Assembly (NCBI GenBank): GCA_964496765.1
Contig: CAZCAP010000010.1
Location: 1 to 29,710 of the forward strand
Direction: 5' to 3'
Origin: an uncultured archaeon
GTDB lineage: Archaea > Iainarchaeota > Iainarchaeia > Iainarchaeales > CSSED10-239
DNA length: 29,710 nt
In this document: in pieces, positions 8,418 to 12,748 of the stretch
How the letters are laid out: each line of letters opens with the position of its first letter
Numbering within the stretch: position 1 is the first letter of the stretch
Translations under genes and position numbers: made by a program
The notes under the pieces: generated by a model
What the model saw: only the letters and a program-made list of their open reading frames with translations
The model's database searches: none
What the model was told of the DNA's origin: nothing

Positions 8418-9284
8418 TTATTTTGATATTATTTCCCAATGCCCACCTTTGTCTGGACCTACTCTTCTTATCTTACCTTCAAATCTCAACTTAGATATTT
8501 GTTTTTCTATTGCTCTGGAACTTATCTTCAAATCAATAGACAACTCTCTTGCTGTAATTAAAGAATTTACTTTAATTAATGCTAATATTTTCTCCGAACT
8601 TTTCTCCGAACTTTTCTCCGAACGGTTCTCCACAGTTTCTTTTGAACTTATTTTTCTTTTAAATACAACTATGAACTGACTTCCTACTTCTTTAAACTCA
8701 GTTTCTGGTTCTTTTGATAATATTAGATTTATTCCTCTTCCCCATCGTTCAACATAATGAACAAGATGAAATAATTCAGCAATTTTTTCATTTCTTCTTT
8801 CAGAAACAAGCTCAGTTCTTATTTTTTTTATTGTAAGTCCATGATACAGAAGACCGGGGCTCCTTACTTCCACTCTATTTTTGAAAATTACAATATTCAC
8901 TGAATCATATTTCCAATAATCTCTATGACAAAATGCATTAATTATCTTAACACTTATATTTATTGCTGTTTTAGTTTTTAAAACACCAGAAATCATTGCA
9001 ACCCCTTGCTCTGTAAAAACACTAGGGCTAGCTCCCCCTAAATACATCTTGGATGGTATCACATTTTGTGATACCATTAAATCTATTTCTCTTGAATTTA
9101 ATTTAAACATGAATTCCTTTGGAAATCTTGAAATATTTCTTTTAACTGCTTGATTTAAAGTTCTAGTATCTACTTTATAAAACAAAGCTAAATCTTTATC
9201 AAGTATAACTTGTTGATTTCTAATAATATGTATCTTTTGTTTTATATTATTTTTATTTAAAACAACTAAATTACTTTCAACCAT
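8418..9284 (-). CDS. Chimeric protein: ORF6N domain + HATPase_c_4-like segment + C-terminal wHTH
   Basis: Residues ~15-115 are ORF6N (IRNQQVILDKDLALFYKVDTRTLNQAVKRNISRFPKEFMFKL...FTEQGVAMISGVL). From CHRDYW onward it matches the C-terminal part of AlbA_2/HATPase_c_4 putative regulators (HRDY...VEVRSPG...SERRNEKIAELF...ERWGRGI). The last ~60 aa form a wHTH (ITARELSIDLKISSRAIEKQISKL). Confidence 0.75.
   Translation of the reverse strand: MVESNLVVLNKNNIKQKIHIIRNQQVILDKDLALFYKVDTRTLNQAVKRNISRFPKEFMFKLNSREIDLMVSQNVIPSKMYLGGASPSVFTEQGVAMISGVLKTKTAINISVKIINAFCHRDYWKYDSVNIVIFKNRVEVRSPGLLYHGLTIKKIRTELVSERRNEKIAELFHLVHYVERWGRGINLILSKEPETEFKEVGSQFIVVFKRKISSKETVENRSEKSSEKSSEKILALIKVNSLITARELSIDLKISSRAIEKQISKLRFEGKIRRVGPDKGGHWEIISK
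8588..8631. repeat. 12-nt tandem repeat (ttttctccgaac x3 plus a partial copy) inside the chimeric gene
   Basis: Perfect copies at 8588-8599, 8600-8611 and 8612-8623. They encode the SEKSSEKSSEK linker between the HATPase_c_4-like part and the wHTH. Confidence 0.9.
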
Positions 9285-9356
9285 CTTCTAATCACCAGAT
9301 ATATTATAGTAATTGTGGTGTATATCTCTTTTGGGAGGGGATAGCTGTCCAAGCAA
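9285..9356 (-). repeat. Junction/leader element copy D
   Basis: GTGTTGCTTGGACAGCTATCCCCTCCCAAAAGAGATATACACCACAATTACTATAATATATCTGGTGATTAGAAG-ATG. Confidence 0.88.
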
Positions 9357-9360
9357 CACT

Positions 9361-9375
9361 ATAGGATTAATAATC
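9361..9375. repeat. Direct repeat of the MBL-hydrolase gene 3' end (ataggattaataatc), intergenic copy
   Basis: 15/15 identical to 12173-12187. Both copies lie the same 5 nt from the ccaagca end of an element copy. Confidence 0.8.
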
Positions 9376-9512
9376 GTATTTTGAAAGGATATCCTGTATT
9401 ATCTTCTTAATCTTCTTGACATAGATTTTGATGAAAGGGGTATATATATTGAATATATAATATAATGAGAAGTAATGCAATATAAAATTTTACTAAATTT
9501 AAAACAATTAAA

Positions 9513-10274
9513 TTAATCAACTATTTTATTTATTACTTTATTTACAATATCTATATTTATTCTTAATATGTTAGAAACTTGTTTTAATTCATCTTGATTA
9601 ATAATCTTTTTAAGTTTTAATATTCTTTCTTTAATTGCATTCTCTTTCACAAATAAAGTTAAATTGTTTGTGTTTTCTCCAGAATATAAGCAGATTGCAA
9701 CAATATCACAATAATCTTTAACTCTTTTATGATCTTTAGTTCTATTTACTATAGCATTAATTTTTGTAGTTAATAATAGGTATGGAGAGGGTAACCACAA
9801 TTTCTTTCTAAATTCAATTAATTCTGTTCTATATTTTTTACTTGCAAAAACTAATTTAATTAAAGGTTCATCAACAGGAACAAATCCAAGTTCTTTTTCT
9901 ATTTTTGAATTAGTTGCAGAAATTATTAAATCAATATACATTGAAAAAATATTATATATTGGAATAATCATAGATTCTTTTTTTGTTAATTCTTTACCTG
10001 TCTCATAACTAATTTCTTTTAAATACCTAAAGCTTATAAATTCAAATCCCTCTTTTTCTAAAATTATGCTTGTTTCTTTAAAAGATTCTACATTATTAAA
10101 TCCTAAATCTACATCTCTAGAACCAATATAATTAACTCCAAATTCTTTTTTATAGTTTTTATTTACTGTAAAATAAGTTGCCCATCCACCTATAATTATA
10201 ATTGGTTCTTGTAGTTTGGATATTATTGATTTCAAATATTTATAACTTATATCAGTTTCTCTTTTGTCGTACAT
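9513..10274 (-). CDS. Nucleotidyltransferase-fold protein, AbiEii/DUF1814-like toxin candidate
   Basis: IIIGGWATYF...YIGSRDVDLGF is an NTase G[GS]...DxD pattern, and a late RTKDHKRVKDYCDIVAI segment resembles AbiEii-type proteins. It overlaps the upstream wHTH gene by 23 nt. Confidence 0.5.
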   Translation of the reverse strand: MYDKRETDISYKYLKSIISKLQEPIIIIGGWATYFTVNKNYKKEFGVNYIGSRDVDLGFNNVESFKETSIILEKEGFEFISFRYLKEISYETGKELTKKESMIIPIYNIFSMYIDLIISATNSKIEKELGFVPVDEPLIKLVFASKKYRTELIEFRKKLWLPSPYLLLTTKINAIVNRTKDHKRVKDYCDIVAICLYSGENTNNLTLFVKENAIKERILKLKKIINQDELKQVSNILRINIDIVNKVINKIVD

Positions 10275-10851
10275 ATTTATCTATCAAAATATTATATGCT
10301 TCTATACATACTCCACCTTCACGTTTAAGATCAATCAATAATTGTGGAATAGACACAATTTTATAATTATCAATCTTTTTAGATTCATTTAATATTTTTT
10401 CATCTTCTAAAACAATTAATACTAAATTACCTTTTCCTATTAATGCATTATCTTTTAATAATTTCATCCAGACCATAATATCTTTTTTAGATATGTATAA
10501 TTCAAACTTATTAGGAAATAAATGATGATTCACTATATTCTCTGCAATATATGTTGTAAAAGCATAATCTAGTTTTGTTTTTTTAAAAAAATTCATTGGA
10601 TTTGAAAGATGATAATAATATTTTTTTAATTTATGGGTATCTATTTTAATATAATAATCTATTAATTTATTTAAGTCAATAACAGTTGTACCTGTAACTA
10701 ATTTTTGTTGTTCTAGTTTGTGTATAACTTGTATTACTCTTGGTGTTGAACAACCCACAATCTTTGCAATTCTATATTTTGTTAAAGACCCTGTAGGATT
10801 ATCTAAAAGTGTTCTAATTATTCTTAATTGTTTAATATTTCTTGCAAGCAT
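10252..10851 (-). CDS. wHTH regulator with AbiEi-like C-terminal domain (antitoxin candidate)
   Basis: N-terminal wHTH (LTKYRIAKIVGCSTPRVIQVIHKLEQQKLV). The ORF track starts at a TTG (10869), but the ATG at 10851 has a TATTTAAATA box about 30 nt upstream, so I trimmed to it. Confidence 0.45.
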   Translation of the reverse strand: MLARNIKQLRIIRTLLDNPTGSLTKYRIAKIVGCSTPRVIQVIHKLEQQKLVTGTTVIDLNKLIDYYIKIDTHKLKKYYYHLSNPMNFFKKTKLDYAFTTYIAENIVNHHLFPNKFELYISKKDIMVWMKLLKDNALIGKGNLVLIVLEDEKILNESKKIDNYKIVSIPQLLIDLKREGGVCIEAYNILIDKYVRQKRN

Positions 10852-11012
10852 ACCATATATAAGTAACAAAAGGTATTTAAATACTTTCCTTACCTATAAG
10901 CAACTACATGATATTATAAACATTATTTATATATTATTAATTAAACATTTTTTTGCTTGTAATTATTATTAATTTACTCATAAATATCACTATAAATATA
11001 TGATTATTTGTT

Positions 11013-11053
11013 TATATATCCCCTTCGGGAGGGGGTACGTGGCCAAGCATCAT
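11013..11053 (-). repeat. Junction element copy E (core only; not directly abutting a start codon)
   Basis: ATGATGCTTGGCCACGTACCCCCTCCCGAAGGGGATATATA, about 25 nt after the RhuM stop and about 160 nt upstream of the next ATG. Confidence 0.75.
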
Positions 11054-11077
11054 TTGATGCAAACTACAAAAAACGAA

Positions 11078-12097
11078 TTATTTTTTCTTCGTTAATATTA
11101 GTCTTTTTGTTTCTTTATCAAAATCAGATTCAAAAAGCTTATCTTGAACTAGTCTATATTTTTCAAATTCTTTTTCTGCAAAATGTTTTGCAATCTCGTT
11201 TGTTACTTTACCTGAATTATTTAAAATATCTCTATCATTAAATTTTAAAAATGCATTAAGCTTTTTTGACCAATCACTCATAGTTACTGGCACACCTCTT
11301 TTTGCTTGGTCTTCTGCATAATCAAGATACATTGTTACAATTCTATTTAATGATTCAATTTCTTTCTTATTTAAATAGTTCTTAGCAATACCAACATCAC
11401 TTTTTATTATTTTTCCATTAGGTACTTTCTTCCAAGTAGTTAAACCCATGTGTTCTTTTTCTTTATTTGCTCTAGTCATAATTAGTTCAGCAGCAGTATT
11501 TCCATGAACTGCAAAATGTAATTTATTTTGAACTACTGAGAAAAACTCTCTTGTTAATTCATCATCTTTATTATAATCAATTGAGGTGGAATAAATATCT
11601 GTTATTTTTTGATAAAAATGTCTTTCACTAGCTCTAATCTCTCTAATCTCTAATAATAAATCATCAAAATATTTTCTATTTAAGAAAGTACCATTTTTTA
11701 ATCTTTCAGAATCAAGAACGTATCCTTTTATTGCAAATTCTTTTAGAATCTTTGTAGCCCAGATTCTAAATTTAGTTGCTTTGGTTGAATTTATTCTATA
11801 TCCAACAGAGATTATTGCATCTAGATTATAAAAATTGGTATTATATCTTTTCCCGTCACTTGCAGTTATTAGGAATTTCCTAATAACTGAATCTTCGTGC
11901 AATTCATTTGAAAGGAATATGTTTTTTAGATGTTCATTGATTGTTGCAATATTAACTTCAAATAATTTTGACATCATCTTTTGACTTAACCAAATATTTT
12001 CATCTTCGAATTTCACTTCAATACCATCTTCTCCTGCTTGAGAAGTAAATATTAAAAATTCAGCTGTGCTATTTCTTATAGTTAATTTATTATCCAT
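11078..12097 (-). CDS. rhuM: RhuM-family protein
   Basis: The N-terminus MDNKLTIRNSTAEFLIFTSQAG...IEVKFEDENIWLSQKMMSKLFEV and DAIISVGYRINSTKATKFRIWATKILKE match the RhuM family. The ATG at 12097 is preceded by GGTGG (SD); the track start at 12109 is a TTG. Confidence 0.85.
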   Translation of the reverse strand: MDNKLTIRNSTAEFLIFTSQAGEDGIEVKFEDENIWLSQKMMSKLFEVNIATINEHLKNIFLSNELHEDSVIRKFLITASDGKRYNTNFYNLDAIISVGYRINSTKATKFRIWATKILKEFAIKGYVLDSERLKNGTFLNRKYFDDLLLEIREIRASERHFYQKITDIYSTSIDYNKDDELTREFFSVVQNKLHFAVHGNTAAELIMTRANKEKEHMGLTTWKKVPNGKIIKSDVGIAKNYLNKKEIESLNRIVTMYLDYAEDQAKRGVPVTMSDWSKKLNAFLKFNDRDILNNSGKVTNEIAKHFAEKEFEKYRLVQDKLFESDFDKETKRLILTKKK

Positions 12098-12171
12098 AAA
12101 ATCCACCAATCTATAAATAATATCTTAAAATCTGTATTTAAAGCTTTCCCAACCTCGTGACCAAGCATCAT
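12098..12171 (-). repeat. Junction/leader element copy F (degenerate)
   Basis: ATGATGCTTGGTCACGAGGTTGGGAAAGC...GATTGGTGGATTTT-ATG. It keeps the GCTTGG-CACG start and the SD, but the CCCTCCC arm is lost. Confidence 0.5.
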
Positions 12172-12172
12172 C

Positions 12173-12187
12173 ATAGGATTAATAATC
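12173..12187. repeat. Direct repeat ataggattaataatc (genic copy: last codons plus stop of the MBL hydrolase)
   Basis: Identical to 9361-9375. Confidence 0.8.
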
Positions 12188-12748
12188 ATGTCCTGGACAA
12201 AGAATCTTATAGTCAATTGCTTTTAATTTTTGTAAACTTTGTTTCATGCTTGATGGAACAGAAGTTGGTAGATCATATCTTCCTATATTGCCATTGAAGA
12301 AAAGAGTATCTCCAGAAAAAAGAATCTTTTCTTGTTTATCAAATATACACATCCCCCCTATTGTATGACCAGGAGTTTCAAGAATGAGAAATCTCTGAAA
12401 AGGAAGCTTGATTGATGAGATATTCTTTATCTTACAATTAAATATCTTTGATAGAGAAGAATCAAGAATACTCCCTTCTCTATTTTCTTTTAGAGCTTTT
12501 ATTTCTTTTCCTGAAGCAAAGAAATTTGCTTTAGTAAAAATATCAAAATTACCTATATGATCATAATGTAGATGAGTAAAAATAACCTGCTTTATATCTG
12601 TTGGTTGAAAGACAGAAATAGAATCAGAAAGAATCTCATCTCTGTCAACTCTATCTCCAGCATCAATTAGAGTTTGAAACTCTGATAAATAAAAGATATT
12701 AGATGAGTTTGATATTTTATAAATTCCTTCACAGATTTTTTTAAGCAT
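12179..12748 (-). CDS. MBL-fold metallo-hydrolase
   Basis: THLHYDHIGN (HxHxDH), TPGHTIGG, and the C-terminal CPGHDY. Confidence 0.8.
   Translation of the reverse strand: MLKKICEGIYKISNSSNIFYLSEFQTLIDAGDRVDRDEILSDSISVFQPTDIKQVIFTHLHYDHIGNFDIFTKANFFASGKEIKALKENREGSILDSSLSKIFNCKIKNISSIKLPFQRFLILETPGHTIGGMCIFDKQEKILFSGDTLFFNGNIGRYDLPTSVPSSMKQSLQKLKAIDYKILCPGHDY

What the first reader, a model, noticed from the sequence alone, without database searches (positions are those of the whole stretch)
9361..12187. 15-nt duplication of the MBL-hydrolase gene 3' end brackets a 2.8-kb block (att-like insertion scar)
ATAGGATTAATAATC occurs at 12173-12187, where it encodes the last codons and stop of the MBL hydrolase (...GHDY-TAA). 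It occurs again at 9361-9375, where it is intergenic. In both places it sits exactly 5 nt from the CCAAGCA end of an element copy (F and D). A shorter echo, GATTAATAA at 7181-7189, lies the same 10 nt from the GCTTGG of copy B. Beyond the 15 nt, similarity to the MBL coding sequence decays quickly. This is the classic signature of site-specific insertion into a gene 3' end that regenerates the end. Here the inserted block would be copy F, RhuM, copy E, the AbiE-like pair and 137 nt. The implied recombination core is GATTATTAATCCTAT-N5-TGCTTGG.
Basis: partly seen in the sequence, partly recalled or inferred. Interest (0 to 1): 0.65.

Follow-up and report, generated by a model that had tools for sequence, protein, structure and literature searches.

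The report
Gene-end echo marks old cassette insertion
A 15-base copy of the end of a housekeeping hydrolase gene sits inside a variable row of defence-type genes in a tiny (DPANN-type) archaeon. It is a real fossil of an old rearrangement at a gene-insertion hot spot, but nothing found here shows an active, integrase-driven attachment site.

Summary
ATAGGATTAATAATC occurs exactly twice in the 0.74-Mb genome, at 9361-9375 and 12173-12187. Each copy lies 5 nt from the TGCTTGG start of a ~75-nt "head" that precedes a cassette gene (0 of 3000 shuffles reach a 15-nt same-register run).

- The MBL–DisA interval is a hypervariable defence-gene hot spot. Relatives carry no cassette (L042, L024), one cassette (L026-28) or other sets (G001, L031).
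- In the more distant relative L058, the MBL stop is followed directly by a D-type head and the D-type gene. This is essentially the predicted empty site.

Three results argue against a recent, unitary, site-specific insertion.
- The sister species G001 has the same T–echo–D junction in decayed form, so the joint is probably old.
- The F–RhuM cassette sits elsewhere in G001, and E–AbiE abuts MBL there.
- Eleven conspecific contigs all show the filled state.

No integrase, Cas1, terminal inverted repeats, attC or dif-like structure was found. XerA is the only tyrosine recombinase detected.

The best reading is a scar of sequential displacement or short-homology insertion at a conserved anchor, as in T6SS, Rhs and CDI orphan arrays.

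The parts
12173..12187 (-). 15-mer copy 1 (GATTATTAATCCTAT): the last two codons and stop of the MBL hydrolase plus 6 nt. It contains the 11-nt palindrome GATTATTAATC.
9361..9375 (-). 15-mer copy 2, intergenic. It lies between the T-element and head D.
12179..12748 (-). MBL-fold hydrolase gene, the conserved anchor gene on one side of the array.
   Evidence: Pfam Lactamase_B, 1.5e-24. Orthologues at 79-93% aa identity sit in the same place in relatives.
12086..12167 (-). Head F. It has the TGCTTGGTCACG core, a diverged promoter-like part and a GGTGGA Shine-Dalgarno sequence before the RhuM ATG.
   Evidence: The orthologous F' in G001 C13 is shown.
11078..12085 (-). RhuM-family gene. The F-RhuM cassette (about 11050-12167) is independently mobile.
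   Evidence: Pfam 4.6e-109. It is 90.6% identical to G001 C13 6230-7396, which lies in a different context.
10987..11049 (-). Head E. It is a G001-type head with core TGCTTGGCCACG.
   Evidence: In G001 its orthologue directly abuts MBL.
9513..10854 (-). AbiEi-like (10252-10854) and AbiEii-like (9513-10274) gene pair.
   Evidence: Pfam and PADLOC matches are weak. Relatives are named AbiEii/AbiGii toxin. The pair is 90.7% nt identical to G001 1388-3015.
9376..9476 (-). T-element, a ~100-nt non-coding module. In L042, L024 and at the array end in G001 it is the native sequence downstream of MBL.
9285..9355 (-). Head D. It has the TGCTTGGACAGC core, a BRE/TATA-like CCCAAAAGAGATATA stretch and a GGTGA Shine-Dalgarno sequence.
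8418..9284 (-). ORF6N::HATPase_c_4-HTH chimeric gene (cassette D). Its C-terminal 175 aa are 88% identical to the full-length AlbA_2-HATPase gene of G001.
7181..7189 (-). 9-nt echo (TTATTAATC) in the same register upstream of head B. It is not significant on its own.
7216..7244 (-). 29-nt relic of an internal RhuM coding segment in the spacer upstream of head B. It is evidence of earlier cassette turnover.
   Evidence: 28/29 match with one gap; 0 of 500 shuffles reach this score
5158..6076 (-). Head A plus the Bro-N gene. This is the only cassette shared with L026-L028 and lies next to DisA.

Best explanation
The second 15-mer is a fossil of a time when cassette D lay directly behind the MBL gene.

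The interval between the MBL hydrolase and DisA is a hot spot where defence-type gene cassettes are gained, lost and exchanged. Each cassette is headed by a ~75-nt promoter-like head that begins TGCTTGG.

The MBL stop region plus the first bases of the adjacent head form a conserved anchor. At some point before G000 and its sister species G001 split, DNA carrying E-AbiE and the T-element (with or without F-RhuM) came to lie between the MBL gene and cassette D.

The recombination used, or created, a short stretch of identity at the anchor. Candidate mechanisms are homology-facilitated illegitimate recombination of linear DNA, or a Campbell-type single crossover of a circle at 15-30 nt of identity. 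Either one left a copy of the MBL end on both sides of the block.

Later exchange between heads remodelled the block, including gain or loss of F-RhuM.

Shown: the repeat, its uniqueness, the variable hot spot, the MBL-D adjacency in a relative, the shared joint in G001, and independent movement of the RhuM cassette. Inferred: the order of events and the recombination mechanism.
For: - Repeat: the 15-mer is exact, unique in the genome and in a fixed register with the head core.
- Conserved anchor: TAAT(Y)CTAT..TG(C/T)(T/G)TGG follows MBL in G000, L042 and L026-28, whatever cassette comes next.
- Locus variants: L042 has MBL, anchor, about 58 nt, T and then X, with no cassette. L024 has MBL directly followed by T. 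L026-28 have only A-BroN before DisA. L031 has another gene. G001 has a different set.
- Former adjacency: L058 has the MBL stop, a head and an AlbA_2/HATPase gene 82% identical to the D' gene of G001.
- Shared joint: G001 has AbiE1, T1/T2, echo and D' collinear with G000, with the same 28-nt spacing from CTTTCA to TGCTTGG. The two joints match at 31/50 positions. The G001 D' flank matches the G000 MBL/F flank at 23/38 positions in register (p = 5e-5, a post hoc test).
- Breakpoints: blocks of homology between genomes start 4-8 nt before a TGCTTGG and end 10-37 nt into the next head.
- Exchange: cassettes are 88.7-90.8% nt identical between G000 and G001, against 74-85% for the flanking core genes. 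This fits later lateral exchange.
- Second example: an 18-nt exact direct repeat brackets a 1.85-kb cassette block in G001.
- Published analogue: sequential displacement with homology-facilitated illegitimate recombination in V. cholerae T6SS arrays and Rhs/CDI orphan modules (PMC5361080).
Against: - Within G000 the D copy is 15/15 identical, while the 6 nt before it and the 5 nt after it match the MBL side at only 2/6 and 2/5. In G001 the same 15 positions match the G000 15-mer at only 9/15, and G001's own MBL end at 7/15.
- An old neutral scar should decay evenly. Some conversion, selection or more recent crossover at the 15-mer in G000 has to be added to the model.
- The extended echo in G001 rests on a post hoc register test. 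A profile of MBL tails searched with nhmmer finds no echo.
- Direction cannot be resolved: a block inserted upstream of D and D inserted downstream of T give the same product.
- L058 and L042 are short contigs (1.8 and 2.1 kb).
Confidence: 0.55

Rival explanations
1. Active att-type site. GATTATTAATCCTAT-N5-TGCTTGG is the core of a site-specific system. The enzyme would be the chromosomal XerA or an integrase on an unassembled or extrachromosomal element. It repeatedly inserts and excises cassette blocks at the MBL 3' end and regenerates the gene end each time.
For: - Conservation is block-like: 15/15 identity with sharply diverged flanks, as expected for an att core between unrelated arms.
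- The 15-mer contains an 11-nt palindrome.
- The same register recurs at head B.
- The anchor is conserved next to MBL in several lineages, including an empty site that keeps the 15-mer (one mismatch), N5 and a TGTTTGG core.
- XerA is present.
- The genome is only 86% complete.
Against: - No integrase lies in the block or the window.
- The only tyrosine recombinase is an XerA equivalog, and it scores below the cut-off of the integron-integrase models.
- No dif-like 11-6-11 architecture was found; the best arms match at 7-8 of 11.
- The block is composite, and its parts occur separately in G001.
- All 11 conspecific contigs show the filled state.
- The G001 copy of the core is decayed (9/15 matches to the G000 15-mer, 7/15 to G001's own MBL end).
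- The head pattern is absent from viral contigs.
Confidence: 0.15
2. Functional motif kept alike by selection or gene conversion. The 15-mer, or its palindrome GATTATTAATC, is a protein-binding site such as an operator for an HTH protein of the island. It lies upstream of heads F and D, and partly B. Its identity reflects constraint or short-tract conversion between neighbouring repeats, not the boundary of an insertion.
For: - The sequence is palindromic.
- It keeps a fixed distance to the promoter-like head in three copies of one array.
- There are 0/15 changes beside heavily changed flanks.
- The island encodes several HTH proteins.
- Non-coding heads are conserved far better than the genes they precede. 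The G001 AbiE1 and AbiE2 proteins are unrelated, yet both have E-type heads and T tails.
Against: - The motif is missing from the other 15 heads of the genome.
- It is not conserved at D' in G001.
- Nine of its 15 bases are fixed by MBL coding in any case.
- This model does not explain how an MBL-end sequence first arrived at D.
Confidence: 0.13
3. Purely internal tandem duplication. A unit running from the MBL tail through a head to the T-element was duplicated by unequal crossing-over, giving the T|MBL-tail joint. The genes inside the two copies were later replaced by head-to-head recombination.
For: - In G001 both the anchor and T are duplicated in the same order: anchor...T2, echo...T3.
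- T is the native MBL-downstream sequence in L042 and L024.
- ATTCTTT occurs in both the G001 T end and the MBL tail, near the proposed joint (read from the sequences printed).
Against: - The gene pairs in the two units of G001 show no detectable similarity (E = 0.18 and 0.68), although the T tails are much alike and both pairs carry E-type heads.
- T shows no homology to MBL coding sequence (z = 0.9).
- L058 shows D directly behind MBL without T.
Confidence: 0.12
4. Chance recurrence of an AT-rich word.
For: The genome is 29% G+C.
Against: The 15-mer is unique in the genome and lies in the same register next to the same 7-mer core. None of 3000 shuffles reaches a 15-nt run.
Confidence: 0.01

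Closest known systems
Sequential displacement arrays: V. cholerae T6SS effector-immunity arrays (Kirchberger et al. 2017, PMC5361080); Rhs C-terminal displacement and orphan cdiA-CT/cdiI modules (as cited in that paper)
   Same: A conserved anchor gene lies on one side. New modules enter next to it and older ones are pushed downstream. A displaced module keeps a short remnant of the anchor's 3' end. No integrase is involved. The proposed mechanism is homology-facilitated illegitimate recombination plus ordinary homologous exchange. Content varies between close relatives.
   Different: Here the anchor (an MBL hydrolase) is functionally unrelated to the cassettes. The cassettes are stand-alone defence-candidate genes, each with its own promoter-like head. 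The organism is a DPANN-type archaeon. The remnant is only 15 nt.
Integrative elements and genomic islands that insert into the 3' end of a gene or tRNA and regenerate it (tyrosine-integrase att sites; archaeal examples reviewed in PMC8371274, title and abstract only)
   Same: A direct repeat equal to the gene's 3' end brackets a block of accessory genes, and the gene stays intact.
   Different: No integrase gene is present. The block is a composite of independently moving cassettes. The joint is shared with a sister species. No excision variants were seen.
Integrons and CALINs, including archaeal ones (Ghaly et al. 2022, PMC9668308)
   Same: A one-directional array of mostly single-gene cassettes sits at a fixed chromosomal site. 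A repeated junction element separates cassettes. Cassette content differs between relatives. CALINs lack an integrase.
   Different: The junction element lies 5' of each ORF and carries BRE/TATA-like and Shine-Dalgarno parts. It has no R''/L''-L'/R' attC structure. No IntI was found.
Casposons, whose Cas1 casposase makes 14-15-bp target-site duplications, often at gene 3' ends (from my own knowledge, not checked in a paper here)
   Same: A roughly 15-bp direct repeat lies at a gene 3' end in an archaeon.
   Different: No Cas1 was found in the assembly, and the block has no terminal inverted repeats.

Membership tests
Integrase-type integrative element with att core at a gene 3' end | Direct repeat identical to the target gene's 3' end on both sides of the inserted block | tested here: met
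   The 15/15 repeat is at 9361-9375 and 12173-12187 and includes the MBL stop codon.
Integrase-type integrative element with att core at a gene 3' end | Integrase or recombinase gene carried by the element | tested here: not met
   The genes between the repeats are RhuM and an AbiE-like pair. The only PF00589 hit in the genome is on contig C2 and is an XerA equivalog. There is no resolvase, Y1 transposase or Cas1.
Integrase-type integrative element with att core at a gene 3' end | The block is present or absent as one unit, with a precise empty site in relatives | tested here: inconclusive
   L058 has MBL followed by the D-type cassette, and L042 is empty. However, G001 has MBL followed by E-AbiE, with F-RhuM elsewhere. 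Eleven conspecific contigs are all filled.
Integrase-type integrative element with att core at a gene 3' end | Excised circular form or population-level excision junctions | not testable with these tools
Integron / CALIN | attC sites: imperfect inverted repeats with R'' (RYYYAAC) and R' (GTTRRRY), located 3' of each cassette ORF | tested here: not met
   No R''...R' pair occurs in any of the six junctions on either strand. The repeated element lies 5' of the ORFs and ends in a Shine-Dalgarno sequence and ATG.
Integron / CALIN | IntI integrase next to an attI site | tested here: not met
   XerA scores 197.8 bits against a cut-off of 265 for the integron-integrase model TIGR02249, and it lies on another contig.
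Integron / CALIN | Co-oriented array of cassettes whose content varies between relatives | tested here: met
Xer-exploiting element (IMEX-like) | dif-like site: two 11-bp inverted arms with a spacer of about 6 bp (PMC2958812) | tested here: not met
   The best 11-nt arms around both anchors match at 7-8 of 11 with 5-7-nt spacers, and they lie on the AT-rich palindrome only.
Casposon or DNA transposon with target-site duplication | Cas1 or transposase gene, plus terminal inverted repeats inside the duplication | tested here: not met
   No Cas1 was found. No inverted repeats lie at the block ends.
Sequential-displacement array (homology-facilitated illegitimate recombination type) | A conserved anchor gene with variable modules directly downstream in relatives | tested here: met
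   MBL orthologues at 79-93% aa identity are followed by six or more different arrangements.
Sequential-displacement array (homology-facilitated illegitimate recombination type) | Displaced modules retain a remnant of the anchor's 3' end | tested here: met
   The remnant is 15/15 at D, decayed in the same register at D' of G001, and weak at B.
Sequential-displacement array (homology-facilitated illegitimate recombination type) | Modules are exchanged laterally, so they are more alike than the flanking core genes | tested here: met
   Cassettes are 88.7-90.8% nt identical, against MBL 84.9%, the DisA region 83.5% and the next core segment 74%.
Sequential-displacement array (homology-facilitated illegitimate recombination type) | One-sided homology with an illegitimate joint, demonstrated experimentally | not testable with these tools
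   This needs genetics or read-level data.

The most novel reading that the evidence does not exclude
The MBL-end palindrome, N5 and TGCTTGG are the entry site (attI-like) of an integrase-less cassette-capture system in DPANN archaea. It would run on the housekeeping XerA or on an enzyme not yet recognised. The promoter-bearing heads would double as the recombination sites. This would be an archaeal counterpart of integrons in which each cassette brings its own promoter.
Probability: 0.1. Interest if true: 0.8.

Novelty: new member of a known kind. Interest (0 to 1): 0.35.

Why it matters
The scar gives a direction and a history to a variable defence-gene array in a genome-reduced DPANN (Woesearchaeota-like) archaeon. 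It shows that cassettes once adjacent to the MBL gene were displaced, and that the MBL stop region plus the head core is the stable anchor of the hot spot. Together with the locus variants found here, it makes the question 'how do tiny archaeal genomes without integrases or transposases shuffle defence genes?' concretely testable. By itself, however, the 15-nt repeat is an ordinary kind of recombination footprint.

Tried and rejected
- T-element as a decayed copy of the MBL 3' coding region: rejected (z = 0.9 and 0.2, the same as controls).
- A second relic of an L024-type MBL end (ATTACTT) just before T: rejected once L042 showed that L024 is a deletion form.
- nhmmer with a profile of nine MBL tails, to find further echoes in the arrays: it found only the genes themselves.
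- Simple tandem duplication of whole units: weakened because G001 AbiE1 and AbiE2 are unrelated.
- Heads in viral contigs: five hits, all chance matches in unrelated GC-rich or coding DNA.
- Rfam: only a tRNA-Asn in the window.
- attC, dif-like, terminal inverted repeats and Cas1: none found.
- Close relatives of the D-type gene, to find more T-echo-D joints: the best hits were at most 63% identical, so this was not usable.
- AbiEii relatives in other lineages (L051, L053, L055, L056): L051, L053 and L056 show related head variants, but none shows a true T-element or an MBL echo.
Full report
**Context.** The window is a complete 29.7-kb contig (C10) of a 0.74-Mb, 29% G+C assembly that is 86% complete. 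It encodes TFB, Trm5/TYW2 and an archaeal-type GlxRS. Relatives of its proteins are labelled Woesearchaeota. The organism is therefore a DPANN-type archaeon.

**Check of the observation.**
- Read on the minus strand, the 15-mer is GAT TAT TAA TCCTAT. That is the last two codons and stop of the MBL-fold hydrolase (12179-12748, Pfam Lactamase_B) plus six bases.
- The second copy, at 9361-9375, is intergenic.
- Both copies lie exactly 5 nt upstream, in gene direction, of a TGCTTGG.
- The word occurs nowhere else in the assembly.
- Among the 40-nt upstream flanks of all 18 TGCTTGG heads of the genome, it is by far the longest same-register identity. No run of 15 appeared in 3000 shuffles; the maximum was 14.
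- The 9-nt echo at head B is in the same register but is not significant on its own.
- Eleven contigs carry the identical MBL protein. The eight shown come from eight samples and give the same arrangement at 99.9-100% identity, so this is not a mis-assembly.

**What the TGCTTGG elements are.** In gene direction each copy reads TGCTTGGACAGCTACCCTCCC-GAAAGGGATATA-(about 25 nt)-GGTGA-(5-10 nt)-ATG.
- This is a conserved 5' box, then a BRE/TATA-like stretch, then a Shine-Dalgarno sequence and the start codon of the next gene. I call it a head.
- There are seven heads in the window and 11 elsewhere in the genome.
- With the exact pattern, heads are found only in this genome and in one sister species, G001, among 41 relatives.
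- Variants with other first bases (TGCGTGG, TGTGCGG, TCTCGGACAGG, and others) occur in more distant relatives.
- The genes behind the heads are Bro-N, DUF1016/YhcG nucleases, ORF6N, RhuM, AlbA_2-HATPase_c_4, AbiE-like pairs and nucleotidyltransferase-like proteins. One copy lies 166 nt before RadA.
- Most of the window's cassette genes match PADLOC defence-candidate families PDC-S02, S05 or S13. The AbiEii-like gene matches only weakly and the AbiEi-like gene not at all.

**The locus in relatives.** The MBL gene is a stable landmark, and what follows it varies.

| Genome or contig | MBL aa identity | Order after the MBL stop |
|---|---|---|
| G000 (this window) | – | F-RhuM, E-AbiE pair, T-element, 15-mer, D-ORF6N::HATPase, C-DUF1016, B-DUF1016, A-BroN, DisA |
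| L042 | 93% | TTCTAT-ATTTT-TGTTTGGTCATG (15-mer with one mismatch, N5, F-like core), about 58 nt, T-element, other DNA (X); no cassette |
| G001 (sister species) | 89% | E'-AbiE1, T1, [B'-DUF1016, A', one reverse gene], T2, echo, D'-AlbA_2/HATPase, head, AbiE2, T3, X |
| L024 | 88% | T-element directly; the MBL C-terminus is altered to GHDYF* |
| L025 | 86% | another gene |
| L026-L028 | 84-85% | one head plus Bro-N, then DisA |
| L031 | 84% | about 870 nt of other DNA, then DisA |
| L058 | 79% | a head, then an AlbA_2/HATPase gene 82% aa identical to the G001 D' gene |

- The DisA of G001 lies on another contig. It is preceded by F'-RhuM and one further head-gene cassette.
- The sequence TAAT(Y)CTAT..TG(C/T)(T/G)TGG next to the MBL stop is conserved in G000, L042 and L026-28, whichever cassette follows. 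It acts as an anchor.

**Why this is not a recent, unitary, site-specific insertion.**
- The block between the two 15-mers is composite. G001 has E'-AbiE directly behind MBL. It carries the F-RhuM cassette at 90.6% identity, starting 4 nt before TGCTTGG and running 37 nt into the next head, in a different place.
- The joint T-echo-D exists in G001 with the same module order: AbiE, T, echo, D head, then the HATPase_c_4-HTH coding part. The spacing is also the same, 28 nt from CTTTCA to TGCTTGG. The two joints match at 31/50 positions. The G001 D' flank matches the G000 MBL/F flank at 23/38 positions in register, p = 5e-5. That last test is post hoc. The joint therefore most likely predates the split of the two species.
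- No recombinase gene lies in the block or the window. The assembly holds a single tyrosine recombinase, which is an XerA equivalog. It holds no serine recombinase, Y1 transposase or Cas1.
- The anchors have no dif-like 11-6-11 architecture. The junctions have no attC-type R''/R' sites. The block has no terminal inverted repeats.
- No conspecific contig shows an empty site.

**How the array changes.** Blocks of high identity between G000 and G001 or L028 begin 4-8 nt before a TGCTTGG and end 10-37 nt into the next head.
- Exchange therefore takes place within the conserved first ~35 nt of the heads.
- Cassettes are 88.7-90.8% identical between the two species, whereas MBL is 84.9%, the DisA region 83.5% and the next core segment 74%. 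This fits later lateral exchange of cassettes.
- Non-coding heads and T tails are much more alike than the genes between them. The G001 AbiE1 and AbiE2 proteins show no detectable similarity.
- Two further relics show turnover. One is a 29-nt internal RhuM fragment upstream of head B. The other is an 18-nt exact direct repeat that brackets a 1.85-kb cassette block inside the T-element of G001.

**Best explanation (confidence 0.55).** The 15-mer at D is a fossil of a former direct adjacency of MBL and cassette D, the state still seen in L058.
- DNA carrying E-AbiE-T came to lie between them through a recombination event that used, or created, a short identity at the anchor.
- The mechanism could be homology-facilitated illegitimate recombination of linear DNA or a Campbell-type crossover at 15-30 nt.
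- Head-to-head exchange later added or removed F-RhuM.
- This is the logic of sequential displacement described for V. cholerae T6SS effector-immunity arrays and for Rhs/CDI orphan modules, which also lack an integrase (PMC5361080).

**What this explanation does not cover.** The uneven decay is unexplained.
- In G000 the 15 nt are perfect, while the adjacent 6 nt and 5 nt match at only 2/6 and 2/5.
- In G001 the same 15 positions match the G000 15-mer at 9/15, and G001's own MBL end at 7/15.
- A short conversion tract, selection on the palindrome GATTATTAATC, or a more recent crossover within the 15-mer has to be added.
- This keeps the site-specific model (0.15) and the functional-motif or conversion model (0.13) alive.
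- A purely internal tandem duplication (0.12) is weakened by the unrelated gene pairs and by L058.
- Chance is excluded.

**Limits.**
- L042 and L058 are short contigs.
- Only one sister species is available.
- The scan has a separate, withheld follow-up on the array itself. This report stands on its own evidence.

Noticed in passing
G000 contig C3, head at 41582 (+), outside the window: One head lies 166 nt upstream of the RadA (Rad51-family) recombinase gene. The other heads precede defence-candidate genes. The heads may therefore mark a co-regulated set, for example one responsive to DNA damage or infection, rather than being only recombination sites.
   Followed up: partly
L023 (G001 C28) 3000-3017 and 4869-4886: An 18-nt exact direct repeat (ATATATTCAATAATATCC) inside the T-element brackets a 1.85-kb block in the sister species. 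The block holds B' head-DUF1016, an A' head remnant and one reverse gene. This is a second case of a cassette block flanked by a 15-18-nt repeat.
   Followed up: partly
window 8418-9284 (-) versus L023 5045-6361: The gene of cassette D is a chimera. An ORF6N N-terminus replaces the AlbA_2 (Schlafen-like) N-terminus of the full-length 438-aa gene of G001. The C-terminal 175 aa (HATPase_c_4 plus HTH) are 88% identical.
   Followed up: partly
window 8612-8623 (within the 12-nt tandem repeat at 8588-8635): One conspecific assembly (L034) lacks one 12-nt unit (TTTTCTCCGAAC on the + strand, coding an SEKS repeat). This is a copy-number polymorphism in the population.
   Followed up: yes
window 5597-5644 (Bro-N gene): Six substitutions are clustered within 48 nt between the window and L034, while the rest of 20.5 kb is identical apart from the one 12-nt indel at 8612-8623. 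This looks like a short recombination or conversion patch.
   Followed up: no
window 7216-7244: A 29-nt relic of an internal RhuM coding segment (28/29 match with one gap) lies in the spacer between the DUF1016 gene of cassette C and head B.
   Followed up: yes
L024 7553-7600: In this relative the MBL gene ends GHDYF* and runs straight into the T-element. A deletion of roughly 85 nt relative to L042 removed the anchor and changed the C-terminus.
   Followed up: partly
L051 5763-5860; L053 about 3780; L056 about 4300: Related heads with different first bases (TCTCGGACAGGTACCCCCCCGAAAGTGATATA and others) flank AbiE-like pairs in more distant Woesearchaeota-like contigs. The head family is therefore wider than the exact-pattern search in 41 genomes suggested.
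   Followed up: no
window 12179-12748: Precomputed Pfam hits list a weak Anti-Pycsar_Apyc1 match for this MBL hydrolase. An MBL-fold cyclic-nucleotide phosphodiesterase next to a defence island and a c-di-AMP synthase (DisA) might not be a coincidence.
   Followed up: no
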